Assembly: GCA_023130975.1 (NCBI GenBank)
Contig: JAGMAD010000003.1
Span: forward strand, 195,692 to 243,635
Source: Candidatus Parcubacteria bacterium
Lineage (GTDB): Bacteria > Patescibacteriota > Minisyncoccia > Minisyncoccales > JAGMDC01
Direction of reading: 5' to 3'
DNA: 47,944 nucleotides
Numbering within the stretch: the stretch's first letter is position 1; every line of letters begins with the position of its first letter. Both the position numbers and the translations under genes were made by a program. The notes beneath the pieces are model-generated. The model had not been told where the DNA came from, did not search any database, and saw only the letters and a list, made by a program, of their open reading frames with translations. Shown here in pieces: positions 18,864-30,463 of the stretch.

Positions 18864-18894
18864 TCGCCAACCCAATTTTAAAAATTTGTTTTCT

Positions 18895-19416
18895 ATGATT
18901 ATGAGGCCTACTAAAGACCAATATTATCTCAATATTGCCAAGCAAGTAGCTCAAAGGTCAACTTGTTTTCGGGTTAGGTTTGGGGCAATTATTGTTAGAG
19001 ATGACCAGATTATTGCTACTGGCTATGTTGGTGCACCAAGGAAAACTAAGGACTGTTTTGAAAGGGGAAATTGTTTAAGAGACCAATTAAAAATTCCCCA
19101 TGGCCAAAAATACGAGCTTTGCCGAAGCGTTCATAGCGAACAAAACGCTATTATCAATGCTGCTCGAGCTGGAGTAAGTTTGCTTGGCGGGGATATGTTT
19201 ATTTATGCGGAAAATAAAGAGAGAGAAGCAATAGATGCTTTTCCTTGTTTTATTTGTAAAAAGATGATTATTAATGCTGGCTTAAATAGAGCAGTTTGCT
19301 CAACAAGCGATGGTAAATACAAGGTTTTTAATATCCAGGATTGGGTTCGCGATTGGCAGGAAAGAGACATCTTAGATGACCAGCATCAATACGGAAAGGA
19401 CCAGAATAGGGGTTGA
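18895..19416 (+). CDS. comEB: Deoxycytidylate (dCMP) deaminase, ComEB-type
   Basis: CDA zinc motifs HSEQNAI and PCFICKKMIINAG. Size about 170 aa. Start ATG 18895 or 18901. Confidence 0.85.
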   Translation: MIMRPTKDQYYLNIAKQVAQRSTCFRVRFGAIIVRDDQIIATGYVGAPRKTKDCFERGNCLRDQLKIPHGQKYELCRSVHSEQNAIINAARAGVSLLGGDMFIYAENKEREAIDAFPCFICKKMIINAGLNRAVCSTSDGKYKVFNIQDWVRDWQERDILDDQHQYGKDQNRG

Positions 19417-19433
19417 CCCCCCTTTTTGTTTTT
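19409..19433 (+). terminator. Short GC hairpin plus T-run overlapping the comEB stop
   Basis: GGGG-TTGA-CCCC followed by CCTTTTTGTTTTT. Confidence 0.4.
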
Positions 19434-19461
19434 GATACTGTAAAATTACAGCACATAAATA
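19432..19461 (+). promoter_or_regulatory. Possible promoter of the purine-rich operon
   Basis: TTGATA (19432-19437), 18 nt, TAAATA (19456-19461). Weak match. Confidence 0.3.
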
Positions 19462-19487
19462 GTTAAATAATTGAAGAGGGAAAGAAA

Positions 19488-19745
19488 ATGTATGAAGAAG
19501 AAAAAGTATGGGAAGAAATAAAATATTGTATAGAGATAGGAAGACGAAACGATATACAAAGATGTTTGGAGAACAAGCTACAGACAAGAAGGCGGAGAGC
19601 AATAGAAATGAAGAAGGCATTGGACAAAGAATATTTGGAAATAGAGCAAATAGAGGAAGTATTGGAGAAACTACAAGAAGGGGTTGTTGTAAAAAACACA
19701 GAACAAGAGGCAGAGCGAAGAATAGTAGGAGCAATACAGGTGTAA
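19488..19745 (+). CDS. Small charged helical protein (85 aa), operon gene 1
   Basis: SD GAGGGAAAGAAAATG. MYEEEKVWEEIKYCIEIGRRNDIQRCLENKLQTRRRRAIEMKK... No family recognised. Confidence 0.5.
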   Translation: MYEEEKVWEEIKYCIEIGRRNDIQRCLENKLQTRRRRAIEMKKALDKEYLEIEQIEEVLEKLQEGVVVKNTEQEAERRIVGAIQV

Positions 19746-19768
19746 TATAAATAAAAGGAGCAATAGAA

Positions 19769-19972
19769 ATGGGAGAGAAAGAAAAAATAGACGTTGTGAT
19801 AGTTTGGAAGAAAGAAAAACCGGAGAAGAAAGGAGAATCAGAGAATACAGGAATTTCAAAGACAATCAAGGATATTTCAGAAGAGAAACTTAAGAGTCTT
19901 CTAAAAAGCAAGAAGTGCAATGGCTTTCAGGTGGTTTGGAAATGGGAAAAAGCAGGTGAGAAAAATGTCTGA
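19769..19972 (+). CDS. Small Lys/Glu-rich protein (67 aa), operon gene 2
   Basis: SD AAGGAGCAATAGAAATG. Its stop overlaps the next start (ATGTCTGA). Confidence 0.5.
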   Translation: MGEKEKIDVVIVWKKEKPEKKGESENTGISKTIKDISEEKLKSLLKSKKCNGFQVVWKWEKAGEKNV

Positions 19973-20117
19973 AGAAAGAAAGCCATTTGAGTCAGATATA
20001 GAAAGAATTGAAAACAGGAACAAAAAGTGGATGGAAATACAAAAAGAGCCACATGGTAGAACATTAATGAGATTAAAACTGATATTCGGATTCTCAGAGA
20101 GAGAAGAAAAAGAATAA
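19965..20117 (+). CDS. Small protein (50 aa), operon gene 3
   Basis: SD AGGTGAGAAAAATG. MSEERKPFESDIERIENRNKKWMEIQKEPHGRTLMRLKLIFGFSEREEKE. The track ORF from 19920 is an upstream extension without an SD. Confidence 0.45.
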   Translation: MSEERKPFESDIERIENRNKKWMEIQKEPHGRTLMRLKLIFGFSEREEKE

Positions 20118-20134
20118 AAAGGAGGTGATAGAAA

Positions 20135-20875
20135 ATGGAATTAAAAGAATTAGAAAAAAGAGTACGCCTTTTTTTAAAAGGAGAGTATGCAACGGACAAG
20201 ATATACGATCAACTATACAGAATAGCGGTTCTCGATTCTCAGACTGGCGATTTGGCAAAATTTGTCTATCATGACCCGAAATACAATCCAGAAGCTCGAA
20301 TCGTTGGCACTTTCGAAGACGAAGTTTCAATTTCTGGTGAGGCAGTGTGTCATCTAATAGCTCTGATGATGAGCAGGGGAATAGATTTATCCGATGCTCT
20401 GGAAGCAGGAATTAAAAAATTGGAAGAAAAAGATGGGTACAAGAAAAAGGGTGAAGTTATAGAGATAGATAACATAACGACGCTAAAAGGATACCGAACG
20501 GCCTCTGGTATAGTTGAAGGAATAGCAATAGTAATACTGTTCGCCTCAGAAAAAAAGTTAGAGAAGTTGCTAACGAATTTGAAATTGAAAGATGAAAAGA
20601 AAATACTTGTGACAGAAAGTTTAAGCGCCCATTCAGTTTCAGTTGGTTTTTTGAGAGCAATAAATTTAGTAGGAATAGTAACCAATCAGGGAGGGAGTAC
20701 TTCACACGGAGCAATAATAGCCAGAGAGATGGGAATTCCTTGTGTTTCAGGGACAGAAGTTTCAGAAACAGAAAAAGCGACAAAGATAATTCATAGTGGT
20801 GACAAAATTATAGTAAATGGAAACGCAGGAGAAGTAGTTTTAATAAAGAGAGAAGTAATTTTGAGAAAGAGGTGA
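20135..20875 (+). CDS. Fusion protein: MazG-like all-alpha NTP-pyrophosphohydrolase-fold N-domain plus PEP-utilising-enzyme mobile (phosphohistidine swivel) domain
   Basis: SD AAGGAGGTGATAGAAAATG. N-half: LDSQTGDLAKFV...GEAVCHLIALMMSRGIDLSDALEAGIKKLEEK (MazG-like, acidic motif partly substituted). C-half: ILVTESLS...GIVTNQGGSTSHGAIIAREMGIPCVSG...GDKIIVNGNAGEV (PF00391 pattern; His codon at 20705-20707). Confidence 0.75.
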   Translation: MELKELEKRVRLFLKGEYATDKIYDQLYRIAVLDSQTGDLAKFVYHDPKYNPEARIVGTFEDEVSISGEAVCHLIALMMSRGIDLSDALEAGIKKLEEKDGYKKKGEVIEIDNITTLKGYRTASGIVEGIAIVILFASEKKLEKLLTNLKLKDEKKILVTESLSAHSVSVGFLRAINLVGIVTNQGGSTSHGAIIAREMGIPCVSGTEVSETEKATKIIHSGDKIIVNGNAGEVVLIKREVILRKR

Positions 20876-20880
20876 TAGAA

Positions 20881-22197
20881 ATGGTAAAAATAGGTTTTAT
20901 AGAAGATGAGCCGATTATACTCGCAGCAGTTGGAGTAAAAATCTCCCAAACGCCATTTGAACAGGGGAGTATTCAAGATATTTACGAGGAATGTCGGGGA
21001 AGCGAGTTAGAAAAGGAAGCAGGCAAGCTAAAAGAAGCTGGAAATTTTGAAGGAGCTAAAAAATTGAAACAAGAGGTTGAGAGACGCATAGAGAATTCTA
21101 AAAAATTAGTCAATGAGATAATGATAAAGCACAGACATCTAATCCTCGGTGATTTCCTGCCCTACACGGTAGCATTAGAGGATATTTCACGGCTGGCAGC
21201 GATTTATCTCTGGCGAAATGTGAATGTCTTGAACTTCGTATTCGGCGCTGGTATAGAAGCATCATTTAGAGTGATAAAGCCAAACAGATATAACAAAGCA
21301 GTTAGTGACTTAGGTAAAATAGCATTTGAGGCATACGAGAAGGCGGTTGATCTCGGAGTTCCAGAACAAGACGCAAGGTATATGTTGCCAGAAGGAATAC
21401 TAACCAGAATGATATTTTCTAGTACGCCTCGTTATTTAGGGAAACTGGCAAATTCTTCGAAGAATGCACCATTATCAGAATTCAAAGAAATCGGTAAACA
21501 AATTGAGACACTGGTTAAGGAAAAATTTGGCTTAGAACTACTTCAAGAAACATTACCTTCGGAATGGAAATTCTGGGGACAGGAAAAAATAAAAGAAGGA
21601 ATTTCTCTTGACTATCAAGGAAAGATTCATTCTTTTTCCTTGAATATGGGAGTAAAAGGAAGCTTAGCGATGTATGCTCAACTAGTGCGACAGAGATTGT
21701 TACTATGTGATGTAGAACCATTAGAAGGAATAAGCAAAAAAGGAAGATTCGTTGTTCCTTTTACCTTTCCAAGAGCAACAAGAAAAGATTACCAAGAAAT
21801 AGCCAGTCAGGCAAAGCAAAAGCAGATAGAGTCAATAGAAAGACATGAACAGGATTTCGTTTATTACCTTTTACTTGGACAAGAGGCTGAAGCAATAATA
21901 TATGGGAAAGGTGCTACAGTGATTGAAACTTCACAGGCAAGAAGCGAGGGTGTGGCTCAATGGGAAATAAGGAACCAAGTAGGAATTCCAATAACCAGAG
22001 AATTGGCAAAATATAAAGAGCTGGAAACAGAAATTGGTCCCAGATGCTGGAGAGAAAAACAGTGCATAGAACCCGGAACTTTTAAAACAAAGAAGAGTAT
22101 CTGTAAAGCATTTTTTCAAGCAGAGGGAAATTGGAAAGGAACTTTGAAAGAACTACTTGATACCTTAACTGAACATTACGAGACTTTCAGGGTGTAA
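20881..22197 (+). CDS. Tandem double ThyX-like (flavin-dependent thymidylate synthase fold) protein with a divergent signature
   Basis: SD AGAGGTGATAGAAATG (alternative GTG at 20872). First half aligns by eye to T. maritima ThyX (KHRHLILGDFLPYTVALEDISRLAAIYLWRN..., VPEQDARYMLPEGILTRMIFSS). Second half repeats the pattern (SLAMYAQLVRQRLLL..., SQARSEGVAQWEIRNQ). Confidence 0.7.
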   Translation: MVKIGFIEDEPIILAAVGVKISQTPFEQGSIQDIYEECRGSELEKEAGKLKEAGNFEGAKKLKQEVERRIENSKKLVNEIMIKHRHLILGDFLPYTVALEDISRLAAIYLWRNVNVLNFVFGAGIEASFRVIKPNRYNKAVSDLGKIAFEAYEKAVDLGVPEQDARYMLPEGILTRMIFSSTPRYLGKLANSSKNAPLSEFKEIGKQIETLVKEKFGLELLQETLPSEWKFWGQEKIKEGISLDYQGKIHSFSLNMGVKGSLAMYAQLVRQRLLLCDVEPLEGISKKGRFVVPFTFPRATRKDYQEIASQAKQKQIESIERHEQDFVYYLLLGQEAEAIIYGKGATVIETSQARSEGVAQWEIRNQVGIPITRELAKYKELETEIGPRCWREKQCIEPGTFKTKKSICKAFFQAEGNWKGTLKELLDTLTEHYETFRV

Positions 22198-22270: not shown

Positions 22271-22377
22271 TCTTTAAAATAGAGACCTTGACTCCTTGCG
22301 TTTTTTTTCTAATTATGTATAATAAAATAACAGTTGTTTTAAATAAAAATAAAAAATAGGGGGTGAGATTAAAAAAA

Positions 22378-22737
22378 ATGGCAACAGAAATCAAGAATCG
22401 GTTTTTATCAGCGATATTACAAATAAAAGAAATTAGAGGGGAGCAAGCAGAGGAAAAAGTTAAGGAGGCACTTAAAGAACTTCAAAAGGAGGGGAAAATC
22501 GAAAATTTCGGCCAGACCATGAAATTTAGCATAGAGGATCTAACCGGTATAGATTTTATCATTTTTTGGAAAGCTAAGAAAAAAATATTACTTCAAGTCA
22601 AAGGATATCCCTTTGAAAACAAAAGAAAATATCGAAAAAGGAATATTCAAGTGATTATGGCCTTGCCGGAAGAAAATGTATCAGAGGTAAAAAGAAAAAT
22701 TTTTGCTATCATAGAAAGAAAAACAAAAAGAAAATAA
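22378..22737 (+). CDS. Small basic hypothetical protein (119 aa from ATG 22378)
   Basis: AGGGGGTGA SD region upstream. E...D(GIDFIIF)...LLQVK arrangement faintly reminiscent of PD-(D/E)xK nucleases. Lys/Arg-rich tail. Confidence 0.55.
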   Translation: MATEIKNRFLSAILQIKEIRGEQAEEKVKEALKELQKEGKIENFGQTMKFSIEDLTGIDFIIFWKAKKKILLQVKGYPFENKRKYRKRNIQVIMALPEENVSEVKRKIFAIIERKTKRK

Positions 22738-22738
22738 T

Positions 22739-22768
22739 GGGCTTTATTTAAAGCCCTTGTTTTTTTTA
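22739..22768 (+). terminator. Rho-independent terminator
   Basis: GGGCTTT-ATTT-AAAGCCC followed by TTGTTTTTTTT. Confidence 0.75.
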
Positions 22769-22814: not shown

Positions 22815-23354
22815 ATGATATTAGGGGTGAAAGAATTACTAAAATTAGTAAAGGAGAGAAAGATAGTAGAAAATCTTTCAGAAAGAGAACTCAAGAATCC
22901 AGAAGGAGCAGGTTTTGATTTTCGGCTCGGAGAGATTTATGAAATTTCTGGAAAAGGATTTTTAGGCATAGACGAAAGAGAGACGCCAAAAACAAAGCTA
23001 TTAGCAAAATATGAGCCAAAAAAGAAACAAAATTTTATTTTTGAACCGGGTAAATACTACTTAATGAAAACAATAGAAGAAGTGAATTTACCGGAAAATA
23101 TTTTATGTCTTCTGCGACAAAGATCAACTTTGCATAGGTCGGGAATAATGATTTTTACTGGCAATGTTTCACCAGGATATCAAGGTGTCTTAACCTTTGG
23201 GATTGTGAATTTAGGTCCTTGTGATATAAAAATTGAACTTGGCGCAAGAGTAGTTCATGCTATGTTCCATGAAGTAAAAGGAGAAACCAATTTGTACCGA
23301 GGCCAGTGGCAGGGCGGCCGGGTCTCAACTGGTAAAAAAGAAAAACAAATTTAA
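22815..23354 (+). CDS. dcd: dCTP deaminase / dUTPase-superfamily protein (Dcd-like)
   Basis: 179 aa. GAGFDFRLG..., LRQRSTLHRSGI, SPGYQGVLTFGIVNLG patterns of the trimeric dUTPase/Dcd fold. Confidence 0.75.
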   Translation: MILGVKELLKLVKERKIVENLSERELKNPEGAGFDFRLGEIYEISGKGFLGIDERETPKTKLLAKYEPKKKQNFIFEPGKYYLMKTIEEVNLPENILCLLRQRSTLHRSGIMIFTGNVSPGYQGVLTFGIVNLGPCDIKIELGARVVHAMFHEVKGETNLYRGQWQGGRVSTGKKEKQI

Positions 23355-23356
23355 TT

Positions 23357-24052
23357 ATGAAAAATATTGCTAAATTTACCCGCCATAATTTTTCTTTTGA
23401 AAATTTAGGCGGGTTAATTGACCATACTAATATTAAGAAAGAAGCTACTGCTAAAGATATTAAAAAAACCTGTGAAGAGGCAAAGAAATATAATTTTCGG
23501 AGTGTTTGCATAAATCCAGAATGGGTGAGATTAGTTAAAAAAGAGTTAAGCGGAACAGACATAAAAAAGGTAGTTTTAATTGATCCACCAATGGGCTTGA
23601 GTTCTTCTCAAAAACGATTGAAAATGTGTCAGAAAGCAAAAAGAGATGGCGCAGATGAATTAGATGTAGTAATGAATATTATTGGCTTAAAATATGAGAG
23701 GTATGATAATGTCTTAAACGACCTAAAAGGAATTTGTAAAATTTTGCCAACAAAAGTGATTATTGGAAGTGGCTATTTAACTGATGATGAAATAAAAATT
23801 GCTTCTCAATTAGTTAAAAGAGCTGGAGCAATTTGTGTCAAAACGGCAACTTTTAAAGATCCGTTAGAAAATAGAGAATTAGAAGAAAAAGCGAGACATC
23901 TTAAAATTATGCGAAAGGCAGCTCCTGGACTCTTAATAAAAGCAGCTGGCAAAATAAAATGTCTCAATGATTTGAAAATAATGGTCAAAGCCGGCGCTGA
24001 TATAATTGGAACCAGCTCAGGAGTTTCAATAATAAAAGAAGCCAAAAAATGA
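23357..24052 (+). CDS. deoC: Deoxyribose-phosphate aldolase
   Basis: 231 aa. [37 protein letters not shown] and CVKTATF (Schiff-base Lys region) match the DeoC pattern. Confidence 0.82.
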
Positions 24053-24056
24053 TTTT

Positions 24057-24986
24057 ATGAGTTATTTTCCAACCGTCGGCCTCGAGATCCATGCCGAATT
24101 AAAAACAAAATCAAAAATGTTTTGCTCTTGTGTCAATAACCCGGATGAAAAACAACCAAATGTTAATGTTTGCCCTGTTTGTTTATCGCATCCAGGGACC
24201 TTGCCGGTGATAAATAGAGATGCAGTGAGAAAAGTAATTAAAACTGGCTTGGCTTTAAATTGTCAAATTCCTCAATATTCTAAATTTGATAGAAAAAACT
24301 ACTTCTATCCCGATCTACCTAAAGGGTATCAAATCTCTCAACTTTATATGCCGTTTTGTGAAAATGGATTTTTAGAAATTAATTGCAGTCCCGAAGGAGA
24401 ACAAGTTCCCTACGGGACAGGCAGGAAAATCAGAATAAGAGAAATTCATTTAGAAGAAGATACAGGAAAATTAATTCACCCAGAAGGAGCCGATTATAGT
24501 TTAGTGGATTTTAATCGGGCAGGTGTTCCTCTAATGGAATTGGTTACTGAGCCGAATATTCATTCAGCAAAAGAAGCGAGGAAATTTGCTGAAGAATTCC
24601 AATTAATTTTAAGATATCTTGATGTTTCTTATGCCAATATGGAAAAGGGACAATTACGCATTGAAGTGAATATTTCACTTCAATGCAAATCCAAAATCCA
24701 AATGCCAAAATCCAAATCAAATCCAAAATCCAAAATCCAAAATCCAAAACTGGGAACTAAAGTAGAAATTAAAAACTTGAATTCTTTTCGAGCAGTGGAA
24801 AAGGGGATTGACTATGAAATTGAAAGGCAATCGGAAATTTTAGAAAAAGGAGAAAAAATTGTTCAGGAAACGCGGGGTTGGCATGATACAAAACAAATTA
24901 CCATAAGCCAGAGAGAAAAAGAGGAAGCTCATGATTATAGATATTTTCCAGAACCAGACCTGCCGATGCTTCACATTGGAAGTTGA
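24057..24986 (+). CDS. gatB: Asp/Glu-tRNA amidotransferase subunit B, N-terminal (catalytic cradle) segment of a split gene
   Basis: [25 protein letters not shown]...[13 protein letters not shown]...[11 protein letters not shown], then stop TGA at 24984-24986. Confidence 0.85.
24686..24750 (+). repeat. AATCCAAA octamer-type tandem repeat inside gatB
   Basis: CAAATCCAAAATCCAAATGCCAAAATCCAAATCAAATCCAAAATCCAAAATCCAAAATCCAAAAC, translated as [21 protein letters not shown]. Confidence 0.85.
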
Positions 24987-24990
24987 AACT

Positions 24991-25653
24991 ATGAATATCA
25001 ATATTAATAAAATTAAATCAGAGATTTCTGAACTACCTCAAGCCAAAAGAAAGAGGTTTAAGGCAGAGTATAATTTATCAGATAAAGAGATAGAAGTTTT
25101 TGTTCAAAATAAAAATCTTGGAGAATATTTTGAAAAAGTAATGTCAGAATTAAGAAACTGGGTAAAAGAAGCAGAGATAAAGAGAGAAGTTGAAAGAGAT
25201 GAATTTTTAAAATTAGCAAAATTTTGCACTAGTTATCTAATTACTGATCTTCAGGGATTATTAAAAGGTGGTGATGTTGCCCCCCACCACTTTTTTGAAA
25301 AAAGTGGTGGGGGGTTGATCACCCCAGAAAACTTTGCTGAATTTATCACTTTAGTTTATAAAAAAGAAATTTCCTCAAAAATCGCTAAAATAGTTTTAAG
25401 CGAAATGTTTAAAACCAGTGCTGACCCGTCGCACATTATTAAAGAAAAGGCATTGAGCCAGGTAACCGATGAATTAGAAATTGAGAAAGTTATAAAGAAC
25501 ATAATTTCAAAAAATCCCAAACCAGTTGAAGATTATAAAAAAGGAAAACAAAACGCTTTACAATTTTTAGTAGGCCAGGTAATGGCAGCTACCAGAGGCA
25601 AAGCCAAACCAGATATAGTTAACAACATTCTAAAAAGAGTTCTTTCAAAATAA
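24991..25653 (+). CDS. gatB: Asp/Glu-tRNA amidotransferase subunit B, C-terminal (helical plus YqeY-like tail) segment
   Basis: ELPQAKRKRFKAEYNLSDKEIEVF...GEYFEKV...ISSKIAKIVLSEM...ALQFLVGQVMAATRGKAKP. In the +1 frame relative to the N-segment. This frame is open from 24931. Confidence 0.82.
   Translation: MNININKIKSEISELPQAKRKRFKAEYNLSDKEIEVFVQNKNLGEYFEKVMSELRNWVKEAEIKREVERDEFLKLAKFCTSYLITDLQGLLKGGDVAPHHFFEKSGGGLITPENFAEFITLVYKKEISSKIAKIVLSEMFKTSADPSHIIKEKALSQVTDELEIEKVIKNIISKNPKPVEDYKKGKQNALQFLVGQVMAATRGKAKPDIVNNILKRVLSK
25280..25314 (+). repeat. Perfect 17+1+17 nt palindrome inside the gatB C-segment
   Basis: CCCCCCACCACTTTTTT-G-AAAAAAGTGGTGGGGGG, translated within GGDVAPHHFFEKSGGGL. Confidence 0.9.
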
Positions 25654-27477: not shown

Positions 27478-28689
27478 TTATTTACACACTCCCTTATAAT
27501 CAATTTCTACTTCCGCTAAATTGGCAAAACAGGTATTACTATAAGTTTTTCCATCCTTTCCACAAACTGGGTTCCATAAAGTAATACAAGCCTGGGGTTT
27601 TGTTAGTTTTTGAGGGATTTGAATCTCTGACGGAATTACACATTTAAAAGAAACAATACAACCGTTTTCGTCTCTTTCTAAAAGAATTCTTCCGTTGCCG
27701 CAAAAGCCGAGAGGTGGTTTTTCAATGTCAATTTCGGGACAATTTCTGTCTATTTCTTCAATTTTTTCTAAGATATTTTCTCTTACTTCCATTATTTTTT
27801 GCCTCAGGACAGGTTTTTCTTGTAATTCTGATTTTAGATTTTCCAAAATTTCAAGATGTATTTCTTTTTCTCCGGAAATTTTGTCAATATATTCCTTGAA
27901 TCTTTCTTGATTCTCTGGAGACATTTTTTCTAAATCGCCTTGCAATCTTTTGAGCGAATTTTCTTGAGCTTTTCTAATTGCTTCTTTTGCCTGTTCAGGC
28001 ACCTTTTCTTCCAGCTTTAGTAAAACTTCTAAATTCTTAAAGTTCTTATATTTACTTCCTTTTATTTCTGCCATATTTTTCTCTAATCGTTCAGAAATGT
28101 TATCTTCTCTATCTTCTAATTTTGTCATAACCTCACCAAATCTTTCAAGGTGTCTCTCTCGGGCTTGTTCTATTTTTTCAAATACTTCAGTCGGAACCTG
28201 AGTTTGTAATTTTTCAAGAATTCTATAATGAAGAGTTTGATGTTTAATAAACTTATCTAAAAAAGCACCAACTTTTGGATTTGCTTCTGCCTTTTCTTTT
28301 ATTTTTTCAGATGCCTCCTTAATTTTATCCATTTCATTTTGATAATTTTCTAAGCTATTTTCTATAATATCTGGATCTTTTACTTCTTCAATCATCTTTT
28401 TTACTTCAATTAATCTTTCGTTAGCAAATTTTGATTTCAATTCGGCTTTTTTGATTGGATTAAAAGCAAAGAAAGACCGAATTCCTCTGCCCCAATCTTT
28501 TAAGAAATAAAAAGGACTATCCGGTAATAAAGTTGGTTCTTCAATATCCAGATCTTCTGCCTGAATATTCTCATCAAGATTTACTGCTTCAGTTGCATTT
28601 TCTTGTGCTAAACTTACTGAAGCAAACCCTAATCCCAGACAAAGAGCGATTAAGATTAGGCATATAAAAGATTTGGTTGAGTAAAACAT
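27478..28689 (-). CDS. Secreted/anchored DUF5667-like coiled-coil protein with a C-terminal Kazal-like domain
   Basis: Signal/anchor MFYSTKSFICLILIALCLGLGFASVSLAQ. LPDSPFYFLKDWGRGI (DUF5667-like). C-terminus ACITLWNPVCGKDGKTYSNTCFANLAEVEIDYKGVC (Kazal pattern). Start set at ATG 28689. Confidence 0.8.
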   Translation of the reverse strand: MFYSTKSFICLILIALCLGLGFASVSLAQENATEAVNLDENIQAEDLDIEEPTLLPDSPFYFLKDWGRGIRSFFAFNPIKKAELKSKFANERLIEVKKMIEEVKDPDIIENSLENYQNEMDKIKEASEKIKEKAEANPKVGAFLDKFIKHQTLHYRILEKLQTQVPTEVFEKIEQARERHLERFGEVMTKLEDREDNISERLEKNMAEIKGSKYKNFKNLEVLLKLEEKVPEQAKEAIRKAQENSLKRLQGDLEKMSPENQERFKEYIDKISGEKEIHLEILENLKSELQEKPVLRQKIMEVRENILEKIEEIDRNCPEIDIEKPPLGFCGNGRILLERDENGCIVSFKCVIPSEIQIPQKLTKPQACITLWNPVCGKDGKTYSNTCFANLAEVEIDYKGVCK

Positions 28690-28846
28690 CTTTTTTAAAT
28701 CCCAAGCACCAAGCACCAAATTCCAAATGAGCACCAATTTTCAAAATTCAAATGATTAAAATTTATTTAGAGTTTTAGAAATTGGGATTTGGGATTTGTT
28801 TGGGATTTGGGATTTGTAATTTGGAATTTACACTGTGAAGTAGTGT
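28690..28846. repeat. Word-repeat palindromic spacer (AAATCCCAA/CCAAATTCCAAAT versus TTGGGATTT/ATTTGGAATTT)
   Basis: Directly visible inverted word blocks on either side of about 28760. Confidence 0.7.
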
Positions 28847-30463
28847 TCAATGTATTTCTTCCTTCTTTTCTTTTAAAAAGTATCGCCATTGCTCTAAGAA
28901 TTTTACAAAAGAAAGGAAAGGCATATCAATTAGAGCAGCGATCATTAAAGCAATATTTAATTTAGCCCATTTTCTTGAAAACCATCTTCCCACACTTACT
29001 ACTGGCAGAGTAAAGAAATCAAAAAGAGTGCGTAAAAATGTTTCTTTTTCTTTTTCTATTGTAAGTTCTTTGCCTCTTTCTCTGATTTTTACTCCGAAAA
29101 AACTAATCATTGACAGGAATAAAAGAAATATAATCATAGAAAGAGTTCCGAAATCTAATCTTTGGAGTAATAAGATAATTATACCAAATGAAAAAATAAA
29201 AGCCAAGGAATAAATACCAAGAATTATAGTATTTAAAATTTTTCCTCTCTTTTTTGGTATTTTTATTTCATAAATATCTTTTTTTTCTCTTACAAAGACA
29301 AGCTTCATCACTTCCATTATTACTCGCTGGAGATTTTCTTTTTTTGGAGGTCTAACGGTTGCTACCAAAAGAAACATCAGAAAAGGAGGGAAAAGAATAT
29401 TCACTCCTAAGCTGAGATAATTAAAATCACCAGTAATAAATTTATCAAAAGGTATTTCAATTGATAACGCCAAGACCATTTTAGTTATAAAAATAGAAAG
29501 AGTGGTATAAATAGCTGCTCGTCTCATTACTCCTTTTAATTTAATTACTCTTTTGTTATAGGACTTTTTAATCAATTCTTCTAAAATTTCCGGTTTTTCA
29601 AAGTTTTCTTTTACTTTCATTGGATTTTCTCCTATAACATCTCCTAAAATTAAATAAGGAGTATCGTATTTTTCGCAAAGATGATAGAATTTTTCCGCTA
29701 AAGGATGATAGAGAGCTTTTTCAACTTTTCTTTTGGTGGAATAGATATTTTGAGCAATTTCTAAAAGTAGAGGAGAAGAAGGAGAAAGCTCATTCCATCC
29801 TATGTATTGTTTTTCTAAAAGATTATAACCAATTATAGAGTCGTCTACCTTGAAAAGAGCTTTCTGGACAGCAATATAAATTTGAATATTTTTTTCATTC
29901 TCTGTCATTTTCTCTATTGTTATTCCTGCCATACTAATAGTTCCTTCCCGAATTTTTATTTGTTCCTTTATCAATCCAAACATATATTCAATCGATGCTT
30001 CTTCTTTTACAGGAGGGGAAAGAGTTTTTTCTAATTCATAACTGGCAATTTCTATGAGCCAATCCTGAAGTTCTTTTTTTTCTTTTTCTGGCCTATTGGG
30101 TCTGTTTTCTAAAATATAAAAGTATTTGTCAATGAGTTTCTGAACAACTGTTATTTTTGATTCAGGAATAGTATCGTTGGGAAAATGTCCACCCCTAATC
30201 AATTCATAAGTTAGCGATTCAGCCATTCCTTGTCTTTTTTCTTGGCCAAAAATAATTCTTCTTTTTAAAGACCGCTCAATAGCTCTTTTTCTTAAAAGAT
30301 GCTCTTCTCTCCAATCAATCACACCTTTTATTTTTTCATAAAAAGCAGCCACCCTGGAAGCAACTTCATCTACATGAATAGTAGAGACACCCTCCTTTGG
30401 TTGAAGGGATTGATGCCAGTTTTGGTATTTTTGAACTAGCTTTTCTGTTTCTTGTGATAACAT
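28847..30463 (-). CDS. Hypothetical multi-pass membrane protein (538 aa)
   Basis: Soluble helical N-terminal region of about 320 aa, then about 5 hydrophobic helices (e.g. ILNTIILGIYSLAFIFSFGIIILLL). No family recognised with confidence. Confidence 0.7.
   Translation of the reverse strand: MLSQETEKLVQKYQNWHQSLQPKEGVSTIHVDEVASRVAAFYEKIKGVIDWREEHLLRKRAIERSLKRRIIFGQEKRQGMAESLTYELIRGGHFPNDTIPESKITVVQKLIDKYFYILENRPNRPEKEKKELQDWLIEIASYELEKTLSPPVKEEASIEYMFGLIKEQIKIREGTISMAGITIEKMTENEKNIQIYIAVQKALFKVDDSIIGYNLLEKQYIGWNELSPSSPLLLEIAQNIYSTKRKVEKALYHPLAEKFYHLCEKYDTPYLILGDVIGENPMKVKENFEKPEILEELIKKSYNKRVIKLKGVMRRAAIYTTLSIFITKMVLALSIEIPFDKFITGDFNYLSLGVNILFPPFLMFLLVATVRPPKKENLQRVIMEVMKLVFVREKKDIYEIKIPKKRGKILNTIILGIYSLAFIFSFGIIILLLQRLDFGTLSMIIFLLFLSMISFFGVKIRERGKELTIEKEKETFLRTLFDFFTLPVVSVGRWFSRKWAKLNIALMIAALIDMPFLSFVKFLEQWRYFLKEKKEEIH

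What the first reader, a model, noticed from the sequence alone, without database searches (positions are those of the whole stretch)
20135..20875. Unusual domain fusion: a degenerate MazG-like domain joined to a stand-alone PEP-utiliser phosphohistidine swivel domain
- The C-terminal part (about 120 aa) carries the PF00391 pattern including GGSTSHGAIIAREMGIPCVSG. The His in the G-G-x-T-S-H context is the phosphocarrier in PPDK, PEP synthase and Enzyme I.
- The protein has neither an ATP-grasp nucleotide-binding domain nor a PEP/pyruvate TIM-barrel domain.
- The N-terminal part (about 110 aa) looks like the MazG/HisE all-alpha NTP pyrophosphohydrolase fold: four-helix pattern ending in GIDLSDALEAGIKKLEEK.
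- The usual acidic metal-binding motif (EExxE...ExxD) is partly replaced (DSQTGD, GEAVCH).

In PPDK/PEPS the swivel His attacks the beta-phosphate of a bound NTP. A nucleotide-binding MazG-like domain could play that donor role here (inference).
Basis: partly seen in the sequence, partly recalled or inferred. Interest (0 to 1): 0.75.

Follow-up and report, generated by a model that had tools for sequence, protein, structure and literature searches.

The report
MazG-like domain fused to phosphohistidine swivel
This gene encodes an unnamed two-domain protein, a nucleotide-binding MazG-type helical bundle tethered to a phosphate-carrying histidine domain, that is conserved in ultra-small bacteria and archaea beside thymidine-nucleotide genes and probably represents an undescribed kind of nucleotide phosphotransfer enzyme.

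Summary
Window 20135-20875 (+) is a 246-aa ORF with a strong ribosome-binding site.

- **C-terminal domain:** residues about 115-240 are a PF00391 swivel domain (E 1.2e-18). Its His191 is invariant in 75 of 75 family members.
- **N-terminal domain:** residues 1-103 match no Pfam model. A 73-sequence profile hits the MazG-like YpjD structure (E 1.3e-5; hhalign 92%). AlphaFold gives pLDDT 93.6, and Foldseek returns mainly all-alpha NTP pyrophosphohydrolases.
- **Metal site:** the canonical Mg2+ tetrad is not conserved. A different signature is conserved instead (R29, H46-D47, N51-P52, R55, E63). In tandem-domain relatives it degenerates in a complementary way, which suggests a composite site across a dimer.
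- **Distribution:** 87 clusters at 50% identity, found in CPR bacteria and DPANN archaea. Databases call it "hypothetical" or "PEP-utilizing enzyme", and I found no paper on it.
- **Context:** it sits next to ThyX, thymidylate kinase, thymidine kinase, dCMP deaminase, DeoC and NUDIX genes. Some members are fused to a deoxyribosyltransferase/DNPH1-like domain.

Best reading (inferred, about 0.4): a miniature dikinase-like enzyme in which the MazG-like domain presents a pyrimidine (d)NTP to His191.

I rate it a new variant of known kinds, with interest about 0.7.

The parts
20120..20128 (+). Shine-Dalgarno sequence AGGAGGTGA, 6 nt upstream of the start codon
   Evidence: Read directly from the sequence.
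20135..20875 (+). Complete ORF of 246 aa: MazG-like domain, linker and phosphohistidine swivel domain
   Evidence: ORF list. Seven close homologues at 56-100% identity, all from Parcubacteria-type MAGs.
20135..20443 (+). N-terminal all-alpha NTP-pyrophosphohydrolase (MazG/YpjD-like) domain, aa 1-103, with helices 3-15, 25-45, 60-80 and 85-97
   Evidence: AlphaFold pLDDT 93.6. Foldseek PDB top hits are 2gta, 5ie9, DCTPP1, 1vmg and HisE. Profile against PDB gives E 1.3e-5. hhalign gives 92%. No Pfam hit.
20237..20251 (+). S35-Q36-T-G38-D39, the position of the canonical MazG E-E-x-x-E motif on helix 2
   Evidence: Alignment to YpjD EELGE. Family composition at these columns is S/T, Q(49)/E(18), G and D(45)/S(13).
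20270..20299 (+). Family signature loop H46-D47-P-K-Y-N51-P52-E-A54-R55
   Evidence: H46 in 69/73, D47 in 67/73, N51 in 63/73, P52 in 70/73 and R55 in 66/73 sequences. In tandem-domain relatives it is retained mainly in the swivel-proximal copy.
20330..20341 (+). I66-S-G68-E69, the position of the canonical MazG E-x-x-D motif on helix 3; the conserved E63 lies one turn before it
   Evidence: Alignment to YpjD EIGD. Position 66 is A/I/D and position 69 is Q/H/E/D across the family; E63 is present in 64/73.
20444..20476 (+). Lys-rich, probably flexible linker (aa 104-114, KKGEVIEIDNI)
   Evidence: No regular secondary structure and low pLDDT in both models.
20477..20854 (+). Phosphohistidine swivel domain (PEP-utilizers mobile domain), aa about 115-240
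   Evidence: PF00391 E 1.2e-18. NCBIfam matches fall only on swivel segments of PEPS, PPDK, RPH and EI. Foldseek gives RPH 5hv2 at E 3e-8 and 36% identity, plus PPDK, the pyruvate kinase C-terminal domain and EI.
20690..20707 (+). G186-G187-S-T189-S190-H191, with the phosphocarrier His191 codon at 20705-20707
   Evidence: H191 is present in 75/75 and G186 in 74/75 swivel-bearing family members. The T/SxxGGxxxH motif is described for dikinases in PMC12167813.
20881..22197 (+). Divergent two-lobed ThyX-like gene, translationally coupled to the target. The mechanical ORF starts at GTG 20872; the likely start is ATG 20881. The target's TGA stop (20873-20875) lies inside this gene's SD, AAGAGGTGA (20867-20875).
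   Evidence: PF02511 E 6.9e-17 in 2 stretches. Sequence read directly.
22363..22737 (+). 124-aa ORF of unknown function, the last gene before the terminator-like hairpin
   Evidence: Only sub-threshold Pfam hits. Hairpin at 22739-22756.
19408..19423 (+). Terminator-like hairpin plus T-run after the dCMP deaminase gene; the proposed upstream boundary of the operon
22739..22756 (+). Terminator-like hairpin plus T-run; the proposed downstream boundary of the operon
18886..19416 (+). dCMP deaminase (ComEB-like), a neighbouring pyrimidine deoxynucleotide gene
   Evidence: PF00383 E 6.9e-18.
22815..23354 (+). dCTP deaminase/dUTPase-family gene
   Evidence: PF22769 E 3.4e-23. TIGR02274 scores 90.4 bits, just under its cutoff of 92.8.
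23357..24052 (+). DeoC-family aldolase (deoxyribose-phosphate aldolase-like)
   Evidence: PF01791 E 3.8e-10.

Best explanation
The gene encodes one member of an uncharacterised two-domain protein family found in CPR bacteria and DPANN archaea.

Shown:
- An N-terminal domain homologous to all-alpha NTP pyrophosphohydrolases (MazG/YpjD/DCTPP1 type) is joined by a flexible Lys-rich linker to a C-terminal PPDK/PEPS/RPH-type swivel domain.
- The phosphocarrier His191 is invariant across the family.
- The MazG-like domain has exchanged the canonical four-carboxylate Mg2+ site for a different conserved set: R29, Q/E36, D39, H46-D47, N51-P52, R55 and E63.
- The gene sits in deoxypyrimidine/thymidylate gene clusters. 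In the window it is translationally coupled to a ThyX-like gene.

Inferred mechanism:
- The protein works as a miniature dikinase-like phosphotransferase.
- A pyrimidine (d)NTP, such as dUTP or dCTP, binds in the groove of the dimeric MazG-like module.
- His191 takes the place of the hydrolytic water and attacks the beta-phosphate. This releases the (d)NMP, which would be dUMP for ThyX.
- The result is a pyrophosphoryl- or phospho-histidine. That group is either hydrolysed or passed to an acceptor: a deoxynucleoside or deoxynucleotide bound by the same site, or by a partner or fused deoxyribosyltransferase/DNPH1-like domain.

My confidence is above 0.9 for the domain identities and the link to deoxynucleotide metabolism. 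The figure given here is for the mechanism.
For: Domain identities:
- PF00391 E 1.2e-18.
- Swivel fold with RPH as the best structural match, 36% identity.
- N-domain profile hits YpjD and BcMazG at E 1.3e-5 and 4.7e-5, with hhalign 92%.
- AlphaFold pLDDT 93.6.
- Foldseek returns mainly NTP-PPases in the PDB and viral libraries.

The two domains work together:
- 70 of 87 representatives carry both domains.
- One apparently split case has the two halves as adjacent, overlapping ORFs.
- His191 is present in 75/75 members.

The N-domain has a functional site:
- R29, H46, D47, P52, R55 and E63 are each conserved in at least 64 of 73 sequences.
- In at least 7 of 11 tandem-domain relatives, copy 1 keeps more of R29/E36/G38/D39 and copy 2 keeps more of H46-D47-N51-P52-R55-E63. 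This is the pattern expected for one composite site across a pseudo-dimer that serves one swivel domain.

No alternative donor is nearby:
- No ATP-grasp or PEP-binding domain is in the protein.
- No second swivel-bearing (PEPS/PPDK-type) protein was found in any of the 36 loci searched; separate ATP-grasp subunits were not specifically screened for.

The chemistry is compatible:
- Dikinase His attacks the beta-phosphate of ATP (PMC12167813).
- In dimeric all-alpha dUTPases the water attacks the beta-phosphate (PMC12524310).

Genomic context:
- ThyX lies immediately downstream in the window clade and in L006, L008, L020 and L032.
- Thymidylate kinase is adjacent in L015, L020 and L039.
- Thymidine kinase is adjacent in L021, L023 and L033.
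- dCMP deaminase, DeoC, NUDIX, DHFR and Cmk also occur nearby.
- A deoxyribosyltransferase/DNPH1-like domain is fused in P0023, P0030 and P0049, and is an adjacent gene in L020, L025 and L029. This gives a two-substrate-domains-plus-C-terminal-swivel layout like that of RPH.
Against: - No biochemical data exist, and there is no precedent for a MazG-fold domain donating to a swivel histidine.
- Loss of the Mg2+-binding carboxylates could equally mean weakened or lost NTP binding.
- The acceptor is unknown.
- The only full-length structure model was low-confidence for the N-domain (pTM 0.47), so I could not check whether His191 can reach the groove.
- Part of the ThyX linkage lies within a conserved NusG-L11-X-ThyX-GatB block in Patescibacteria. 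It may therefore partly reflect inherited synteny rather than independent association.
- About half of the loci, especially the DPANN ones, show no nucleotide gene within two genes of the target.
- The window already encodes a dCTP deaminase/dUTPase-family protein and a dCMP deaminase, so dUMP supply may not need this protein.
Confidence: 0.4

Rival explanations
1. The protein is a housecleaning or dUMP-supplying (d)NTP pyrophosphatase with a regulatory swivel domain. The MazG-like domain still hydrolyses non-canonical or pyrimidine dNTPs to dNMP plus PPi. The swivel domain acts as an autoinhibitory or allosteric module, possibly switched by His or Thr phosphorylation, like the extra C-terminal domain of Bacillus pyruvate kinase.
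For: - The closest structural relatives of the N-domain are housecleaning NTP-PPases: YpjD, BcMazG and DCTPP1.
- NUDIX and 8-oxoguanine glycosylase genes lie next to some family members.
- D39, E63 and E69 are acidic in the window protein.
- There is a precedent for a regulatory PF00391 domain in pyruvate kinase (bioRxiv 10.1101/2024.08.15.607825; structures 2e28 and 3t05 among the Foldseek hits).
- A T189-S190-H191 motif like the regulatory Thr site of PPDK/PEPS is present.
Against: - None of the four canonical Mg2+ ligands is conserved across the family (the tetrad is defined in PMC10014863).
- His191 is invariant in 75/75 members. In the purely regulatory pyruvate kinase domain the His is not universally kept, for example in S. 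aureus.
- T189 is present in only 39/75 members.
Confidence: 0.2
2. The protein is a nucleotide kinase phosphorylated in trans. His191 is charged by a separately encoded ATP-grasp or PEP-utilising protein, as in the two-component dikinases PpsAB, CreHI and HpeHI. It then phosphorylates a (d)NMP or (d)NDP held by the MazG-like domain, which acts as acceptor site rather than donor.
For: - Two-component dikinases in which a separate ATP-grasp subunit charges the swivel His are documented (PMC12167813).
- A MazG-like site stripped of its water-activating carboxylates but rich in Arg, Lys and His could hold a mono- or diphosphate acceptor.
- Thymidylate-pathway neighbours fit a kinase role.
Against: - No PEPS/PPDK-like, second swivel or recurrent candidate partner gene appears in any of the 36 loci. 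Known two-component dikinase genes are adjacent to each other.
- Tmk, TK and Cmk are often encoded next to the gene, so the obvious kinase steps are already covered.
Confidence: 0.15
3. The protein is a non-catalytic sensor or scaffold. The MazG-like domain only dimerises or senses dNTP levels, and the protein modulates ThyX or another partner without any phosphotransfer of its own.
For: - Translational coupling to the ThyX-like gene.
- Loss of the catalytic tetrad.
- In 11 archaeal loci a conserved wHTH-type protein of about 280 aa is encoded nearby.
Against: - An invariant phosphocarrier His and GG motif is not expected for a scaffold.
- Complementary retention of polar and charged residues in tandem copies points to a ligand or catalytic site.
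- Fusions to Metallophos and deoxyribosyltransferase-like enzyme domains suggest catalysis.
Confidence: 0.1
4. The protein is a relative of the Enzyme I N-terminal module (EIN). On this reading the helical N-domain is an HPr-type carrier-binding subdomain, and the protein is a truncated PTS-like phosphorelay component.
For: - The overall size (about 250 aa) and the numbering of the His are close to EIN. PDB sequence alignments place query 147-239 on EI 148-233.
- EI chains align over about 240 columns to the low-confidence full-length model.
Against: - None of the top 50 PDB hits for the N-domain alone is an EI chain, and most are NTP-PPases.
- Sequence profiles link the N-domain to YpjD.
- In EIN the helical subdomain is inserted within the swivel domain, not N-terminal to it.
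- No PF05524 hit.
- No HPr or PTS genes were seen in the annotated part of the window or among the recurrent neighbour families.
Confidence: 0.02

Closest known systems
YpjD / Bacillus-conserved MazG (PDB 2gta, 5ie9) and other small all-alpha NTP pyrophosphohydrolases (DCTPP1/RS21-C6, SSO3215, HisE)
   Same: Same helical-bundle fold (TM 0.6-0.76) with detectable sequence homology over the whole domain. Shared anchor residues are G38, H46, P52 and G68, and the helix 4 motif 'GI(D/S)LxxA' is also shared.
   Different: - The E-x-x-E...E-x-x-D Mg2+ tetrad is not conserved. In the window protein it reads Q36, D39, I66, E69.
- A new invariant set is present: R29, D47, N51, R55, E63.
- The domain is not recognised by any Pfam MazG-type model.
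- It is covalently linked to a swivel domain.
Rifampin phosphotransferase and small-molecule dikinases (RPH; two-component PpsAB/CreHI/HpeHI)
   Same: A C-terminal swivel His domain that is the best structural and sequence relative (36% identity, E 3e-8). It shares the T/SxxGGxxxH motif and a modular donor-domain/swivel/acceptor-domain logic. The three-domain relatives with a deoxyribosyltransferase-like domain mimic the RPH layout.
   Different: There is no ATP-grasp domain and no rifampin- or phenol-binding domain. The only candidate nucleotide module is MazG-like. The context is deoxynucleotide metabolism, not antibiotic or aromatic-compound metabolism.
Pyruvate phosphate dikinase / PEP synthase
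   Same: Same phosphohistidine swivel domain, with the GGxTSH, AR(E/G)xGIP and CV motifs, and a flexible tether.
   Different: [quoted passage not shown]
Extra C-terminal (PEPut) domain of Bacillota pyruvate kinase
   Same: Another case where a PF00391 domain is attached to an enzyme that has no dikinase donor domain.
   Different: In pyruvate kinase the domain is regulatory and its His is not always conserved. Here the His is invariant and the partner domain is a small nucleotide-binding bundle.
Dimeric dUTPases and T4-type dCTPase/dUTPase (all-alpha superfamily members in dTMP synthesis)
   Same: Same superfamily. They have a pathway role upstream of thymidylate synthase. In dimeric dUTPases the nucleophile attacks the beta-phosphate.
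   Different: Those enzymes use water and a full carboxylate/Mg2+ site, and have no phosphocarrier domain.
Nucleoside diphosphate kinase (functional analogy only)
   Same: A nucleotide enzyme that works through a phosphohistidine intermediate. dTDP-to-dTTP conversion is the thymidylate-pathway step not seen among the neighbouring genes.
   Different: The fold is unrelated and there is no evidence of homology. The analogy is a hypothesis and has not been tested.

Membership tests
All-alpha NTP pyrophosphohydrolase superfamily (MazG/HisE/dimeric dUTPase) | Compact all-alpha helical-bundle fold | tested here: met
   The AlphaFold model has pLDDT 93.6 with helices 3-15, 25-45, 60-80 and 85-97. Foldseek PDB top hits are 2gta, 5ie9, 2a3q, 7mu5 and 1vmg, with TMq 0.58-0.70 and probability 0.99-1.0. 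The viral library returns NTP-PPase/MazG proteins.
All-alpha NTP pyrophosphohydrolase superfamily (MazG/HisE/dimeric dUTPase) | Sequence homology to a bona fide member | tested here: met
   The 73-sequence profile against PDB gives 2gta at E 1.3e-5 and 5ie9 at E 4.7e-5 over about 100 residues. hhalign gives 92.3% probability.
All-alpha NTP pyrophosphohydrolase superfamily (MazG/HisE/dimeric dUTPase) | Four-residue Mg2+ site E-x-x-E...E-x-x-D (for example Mtb MazG E119/E122/E138/D141) | tested here: not met
   The aligned positions are Q36, D39, I66 and E69 in the window protein. Across 73 family members none is conserved as an acid: position 36 is Q49/E18, 39 is D45/S13, 66 is A/I/D, and 69 is Q/H/E/D (motif definition from PMC10014863).
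All-alpha NTP pyrophosphohydrolase superfamily (MazG/HisE/dimeric dUTPase) | Match to a curated family model (PF03819 MazG, PF01503 PRA-PH and similar) | tested here: not met
   No Pfam hit at E up to 10 for the N-domains of the 7 close homologues, and none at E up to 0.01 among the 87 relatives.
All-alpha NTP pyrophosphohydrolase superfamily (MazG/HisE/dimeric dUTPase) | NTP to NMP + PPi hydrolytic activity | not testable with these tools
   Requires an enzyme assay.
PEP-utilising enzyme mobile (swivel phosphohistidine) domain, PF00391 | Pfam model above the gathering score | tested here: met
   66.9 bits against a cutoff of 23.1, E 1.2e-18, aa 154-232.
PEP-utilising enzyme mobile (swivel phosphohistidine) domain, PF00391 | T/SxxGGxxxH motif with the phosphocarrier His | tested here: met
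   T183-N-Q-G186-G187-S-T-S-H191 is present. H is found in 75/75, G186 in 74/75 and T183 in 65/75 family members. The motif is described in PMC12167813.
PEP-utilising enzyme mobile (swivel phosphohistidine) domain, PF00391 | Swivelling beta/beta/alpha fold | tested here: met
   In the full-length model the C-terminal half has pLDDT about 65-81. Foldseek gives RPH 5hv2 at E 3.3e-8, and also hits PPDK, the pyruvate kinase C-domain and EI.
PEP-utilising enzyme mobile (swivel phosphohistidine) domain, PF00391 | His is actually phosphorylated | not testable with these tools
   Requires 32P labelling or mass spectrometry.
PPDK / PEP synthase / RPH-type dikinases (whole enzymes) | ATP-grasp nucleotide-binding domain | tested here: not met
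   The only Pfam hit is PF00391. NCBIfam alignments cover only the swivel segments of these enzymes, and the 246 aa are fully occupied by the two domains.
PPDK / PEP synthase / RPH-type dikinases (whole enzymes) | Second substrate domain (PEP/pyruvate TIM barrel or small-molecule-binding domain) | tested here: not met
   Absent from the window protein. Three distant relatives instead carry a deoxyribosyltransferase/DNPH1-like domain.
PTS Enzyme I N-terminal module (EIN) | HPr-binding helical subdomain (PF05524) inserted in the swivel domain | tested here: not met
   There is no PF05524 hit. The helical domain is N-terminal rather than inserted, and none of the top 50 Foldseek PDB hits for it is an EI chain.

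The most novel reading that the evidence does not exclude
The family is a new class of nucleotide phosphotransferase specific to organisms with reduced genomes. In it, a MazG-fold domain replaces the ATP-grasp domain of dikinases. The enzyme would couple cleavage of dUTP or dCTP, which yields dUMP for ThyX, to histidine-mediated phosphorylation or pyrophosphorylation of a thymidine nucleotide or deoxynucleoside. This would substitute for missing Dut-, Ndk- or kinase-type steps in CPR/DPANN dTTP synthesis.
Probability: 0.2. Interest if true: 0.9.

Novelty: new variant of a known kind. Interest (0 to 1): 0.7.

Why it matters
CPR bacteria and DPANN archaea make up a large share of microbial diversity. 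They lack de novo nucleotide synthesis and must rebuild their dNTP pools from scavenged material, and many steps of that process are unassigned.

This is a conserved, unnamed protein that sits inside thymidylate operons. It combines a nucleotide-binding fold with an invariant phosphocarrier histidine, which makes it a concrete candidate for one of those missing steps.

Mechanistically, it would be the first swivel-histidine enzyme whose nucleotide module is not an ATP-grasp domain. It would also be the first MazG-fold domain used for group transfer rather than hydrolysis. That would widen the known repertoire of both superfamilies.

The hypothesis can be tested directly with a 246-aa soluble protein and labelled nucleotides.

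Tried and rejected
- **Pfam and NCBIfam on the N-domain alone:** nothing found. Homology appeared only after an exhaustive profile search allowed a 73-sequence alignment to be built.
- **First AlphaFold run (7-sequence alignment):** the N-domain was unusable, with pLDDT below 50. This model was used only for the swivel domain.
- **The search for related loci with the full N-domain alignment:** failed for lack of a conserved stretch. A subset alignment (A5) worked.
- **The search for homologous proteins with the N-domain alignment:** returned only 2 proteins, so it was uninformative.
- **Viral contigs:** no relatives.
- **PADLOC:** no defence-system match for the target, the ThyX-like gene, the 124-aa ORF or the DCD-like gene. 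Only the dCMP deaminase resembles the deaminase domain of a defence dCTPase model. A defence role is not supported.
- **Rfam:** no riboswitch or RNA family in the 720-bp upstream gap.
- **Literature:** three searches for the fusion found no paper on this architecture, and two further searches on the CPR/DPANN nucleotide-metabolism background turned up nothing on the family either.
- **EIN-like reading:** considered because of the matching length and His numbering. Rejected on fold and profile evidence.
- **Recurrent archaeal neighbour of about 280 aa:** no significant Pfam or PDB match. It looks like a wHTH regulator and gave no functional clue.
- **N-terminal extension of about 175 aa in P0058, P0068 and P0071:** no PDB match.
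- **Nearby partner dikinase component:** searched for and not found.
Full report
**Observation.** The window is a low-GC (about 34%) chromosomal segment full of housekeeping genes. These include MurA-type EPSP-fold transferase, MreB, RRF, ProRS, PheRS, GyrB, NusG, L11, GatB, ThrRS and DnaE. The closest relatives of the target come from Parcubacteria-type (CPR) metagenome bins. An ORF of 246 aa runs from 20135 to 20875 on the + strand. A strong Shine-Dalgarno sequence, AGGAGGTGA, lies 6 nt upstream.

**C-terminal domain.** Residues 154-232 match PF00391 (PEP-utilizers mobile domain) at 66.9 bits, E 1.2e-18. NCBIfam and PDB sequence searches align residues about 105-240 only to the swivel segments of PEP synthase, PPDK, rifampin phosphotransferase, Enzyme I and the C-terminal domain of pyruvate kinase. 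In the full-length model this half folds with pLDDT about 65-81. Its best structural match is the swivel domain of rifampin phosphotransferase (E 3e-8, 36% identity), followed by PPDK. The motif T183-x-x-G-G-x-T-S-H191 is intact. Among 75 family members that carry the domain, His191 is present in 75 and G186 in 74. This fits a working phosphocarrier. In a merely structural or regulatory copy the His can be lost, as in the S. aureus pyruvate kinase domain.

**N-terminal domain.** Residues 1-110 match nothing in Pfam, even at E = 10.
- Only seven close homologues exist in the 5.8-billion-protein index.
- An exhaustive profile search of 1.84 billion representatives found 87 relatives, 27 of them at E ≤ 1e-10.
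- A 73-sequence alignment of these N-domains (A4) hits the MazG-like proteins YpjD (2gta, E 1.3e-5) and BcMazG (5ie9, E 4.7e-5) over their full length, with MazZ and SSO3215 as weaker matches.
- hhalign gives 92% probability in the same register.
- With this alignment AlphaFold gives pLDDT 93.6 and four main helices plus a short fifth.
- Foldseek returns YpjD, BcMazG, DCTPP1/RS21-C6, SSO3215, AF1178, HisE, DR2231 and dimeric dUTPases from the PDB. It returns NTP-PPase/MazG proteins from the viral library.

The fold assignment is therefore secure.

**Active-site comparison.** MazG-type enzymes bind Mg2+ through E-x-x-E on one helix and E-x-x-D on the next (PMC10014863). In the alignment these four positions are Q36, D39, I66 and E69 in the window protein. 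Across the family none is conserved as an acid. Other residues are nearly invariant instead:

| Residue | Conservation (of 73) |
|---|---|
| R29 | 68 |
| G38 | 66 |
| H46 | 69 |
| D47 | 67 |
| N51 | 63 |
| P52 | 70 |
| R55 | 66 |
| E63 | 64 |
| G68 | 67 |
| R81 | 60 |

So the domain is re-tooled rather than decayed. Eleven relatives have two tandem N-domains. In at least 7 of these the first copy keeps more of R29/[E,Q]36/G38/D39 but has lost much of the H46-D47-N51-P52-R55-E63 block, and the second copy shows the reverse. I infer that the two residue groups come together across a dimer interface to form one composite site, and that a pseudo-dimer needs only one such site for its single swivel domain. 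This argues for a real ligand-binding or catalytic site.

**Family and distribution.**
- 70 of 87 representatives carry both domains.
- One apparent stand-alone N-domain is followed by an overlapping PF00391 ORF, so it is either a split gene or a frameshift.
- True stand-alone N-domains also exist.
- A motif-seeded scan of one genome per GTDB species found 31 loci: 10 in CPR/Patescibacteria lineages, 19 in archaea (mostly DPANN, plus two Methanosarcinales bins), and 2 in bins labelled Gammaproteobacteria.
- None was found in viral contigs.
- Source names are only "hypothetical protein" or "PEP-utilizing enzyme".
- Five literature searches, three of them aimed at the fusion itself, found nothing on this architecture.

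**Genomic context in the window.**
- A terminator-like hairpin follows the dCMP deaminase gene at 19408-19423.
- The target then runs directly into a divergent two-lobed ThyX-like gene. The target's TGA stop lies inside that gene's Shine-Dalgarno sequence, with the likely ATG start at 20881.
- A 124-aa ORF follows, then a second hairpin at 22739-22756.
- A dCTP deaminase/dUTPase-family gene and a DeoC aldolase gene lie immediately downstream.

**Genomic context in relatives.**
- ThyX is immediately downstream in Yanofskybacteria, in two Saccharibacteria and in another Patescibacteria lineage (L006, L008, L020, L032).
- Thymidylate kinase is adjacent in L015, L020 and L039.
- Thymidine kinase is adjacent in L021, L023 and L033.
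- NUDIX genes occur in six loci.
- dCMP deaminase, DeoC, DHFR, cytidylate kinase, formiminotransferase, Ogg and CYTH each occur at least once.
- Three representatives carry an N-terminal domain of about 150 aa. Combined in a profile with small neighbour proteins from L020, L025 and L029, this domain hits only nucleoside 2-deoxyribosyltransferase and DNPH1/Rcl structures: 24 of 24 PDB hits, with the best 21 at E 7e-4 to 1.5e-2 and the last three weaker, up to 0.19.
- One relative is fused to a calcineurin-like phosphoesterase.

Thymidylate-specific genes lie within a few genes of the target in roughly a quarter to a third of independent loci. I estimate, without a formal test, that this is well above what the handful of such genes in an 800-1000-gene genome would give by chance. 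One caveat applies: part of the ThyX linkage sits in a conserved NusG-L11-X-ThyX-GatB block and may be inherited synteny.

**Mechanism.**

*Shown:*
- a nucleotide-fold domain with a conserved non-canonical site;
- a tethered swivel domain with an invariant His;
- no other donor or acceptor domain in the protein;
- no second swivel-bearing (PEPS/PPDK-type) protein in any of the 36 loci searched;
- embedding in deoxypyrimidine metabolism.

*Established elsewhere:*
- dikinase swivel histidines attack the beta-phosphate of the bound NTP, giving NMP and a pyrophosphoryl-His (PMC12167813);
- in dimeric all-alpha dUTPases the nucleophile also attacks the beta-phosphate (PMC12524310).

*Inferred:* in this family His191 replaces the water. 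A (d)NTP in the MazG-like groove, most plausibly dUTP or dCTP given the context, is cleaved to (d)NMP while the enzyme becomes phosphorylated. The phosphoryl group is then hydrolysed or passed to a deoxynucleoside or deoxynucleotide acceptor. That acceptor may be bound by the same site, or by a fused or neighbouring deoxyribosyltransferase-like domain, which would recreate the RPH domain logic. I put this at about 0.4.

*Rivals:*

| Rival | Weight |
|---|---|
| Pyrophosphatase with a regulatory swivel domain | 0.2 |
| Acceptor-site nucleotide kinase charged in trans | 0.15 |
| Non-catalytic sensor or scaffold | 0.1 |
| EIN-like module (rejected on fold evidence) | 0.02 |

**Comparison and novelty.** The protein belongs to the all-alpha NTP-PPase superfamily by fold and homology, but it fails the defining metal-site test. 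It has a bona fide PF00391 domain. It is not a PPDK, PEPS, RPH or EI enzyme, because it has neither the ATP-grasp domain nor the second substrate domain. The combination is absent from the curated libraries searched. It is best described as a new variant of known kinds: a swivel-histidine protein whose nucleotide module is MazG-like.

**Limits.**
- Whole-genome phyletic profiling against ndk, dut and tmk could not be done with 12-kb loci.
- All functional statements beyond domain identity and context are inference.

Noticed in passing
window 20872-22197: The ThyX-like gene is unusually long (441 aa by the mechanical ORF call, or 438 aa from ATG 20881) and has two PF02511 stretches. It is very divergent from solved ThyX structures (PDB E about 4e-3; NCBIfam thyX scores 31 bits against a cutoff of 88). 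Conserved ThyX elements appear to be split between its halves: 'ARYMLP' lies in the first half and 'AQWEIR' in the second. In the close relatives L001 and L004 the gene is called as 331+72 aa and 287+85 aa pieces. In L006, L008, L020 and L032 it is 473-554 aa.
   Followed up: partly
window 24057-25653: GatB is encoded as two overlapping ORFs in different frames: GatB_N at 24057-24986 and GatB_Yqey at 24931-25653. The same split is seen in L001 (279 + 207 aa), but the gene is intact in L003 and L004 (503 and 525 aa). This is either a real split gene or a recurrent frameshift or assembly error.
   Followed up: no
window 19417-20134: A 720-bp purine-rich gap lies between the dCMP deaminase terminator and the target, and contains only short ORFs. 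One of them (19769-19972, 67 aa) is weakly conserved with the 54-56-aa ORFs called at the same place in L001 and L004 (tblastn E 2e-7 and 9e-6). No Rfam family matches the region.
   Followed up: partly
window 22363-22737: A 124-aa ORF sits between the ThyX-like gene and a strong bidirectional terminator-like hairpin. It has only sub-threshold hits (MCM4 winged helix, NERD). This ORF and the following DCD-like gene are absent from the equivalent position in L001 and L004, where DeoC follows ThyX.
   Followed up: no
L007, L012, L014, L016, L017, L019, L023, L024, L026, L028, L034 (alignment A6): A well conserved protein of about 280 aa, with 58 invariant columns, lies within three genes of the family member in 11 archaeal loci and is often divergently adjacent. 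Its N-terminus looks like a winged helix-turn-helix (PRTVQE...NWRTA) and its C-terminus has an 'IEIRH..QPLRGFIIDD' motif. It has no significant Pfam or PDB match.
   Followed up: partly
P0058, P0068, P0071 (aa 1-175): A conserved N-terminal extension of about 175 aa precedes two tandem MazG-like domains and the swivel domain. It has no Pfam or PDB sequence match and may be a further substrate-binding domain.
   Followed up: partly
window 28847-30463 (-) and 27478-28737 (-): A 537-aa ORF has no Pfam hit at all. Next to it is a DUF5667 protein with a C-terminal Kazal-type protease-inhibitor domain, which is unusual in bacteria. The DUF5667 gene is syntenic in L001 and L003.
   Followed up: no
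window about 26000 and about 36000: Gene orientation and GC/AT skew flip together: + strand genes up to 26 kb, - strand genes from 26.0 to 35.6 kb (including dnaE), then + strand genes again. This suggests an inverted segment of about 10 kb rather than a replication origin or terminus.
   Followed up: no
L038 (P0066, 2139-2477): A stand-alone copy of the MazG-like domain (112 aa, no swivel partner) lies in a short contig next to a Dam-type methylase and small ORFs, which may be a mobile-element or phage-like context.
   Followed up: no
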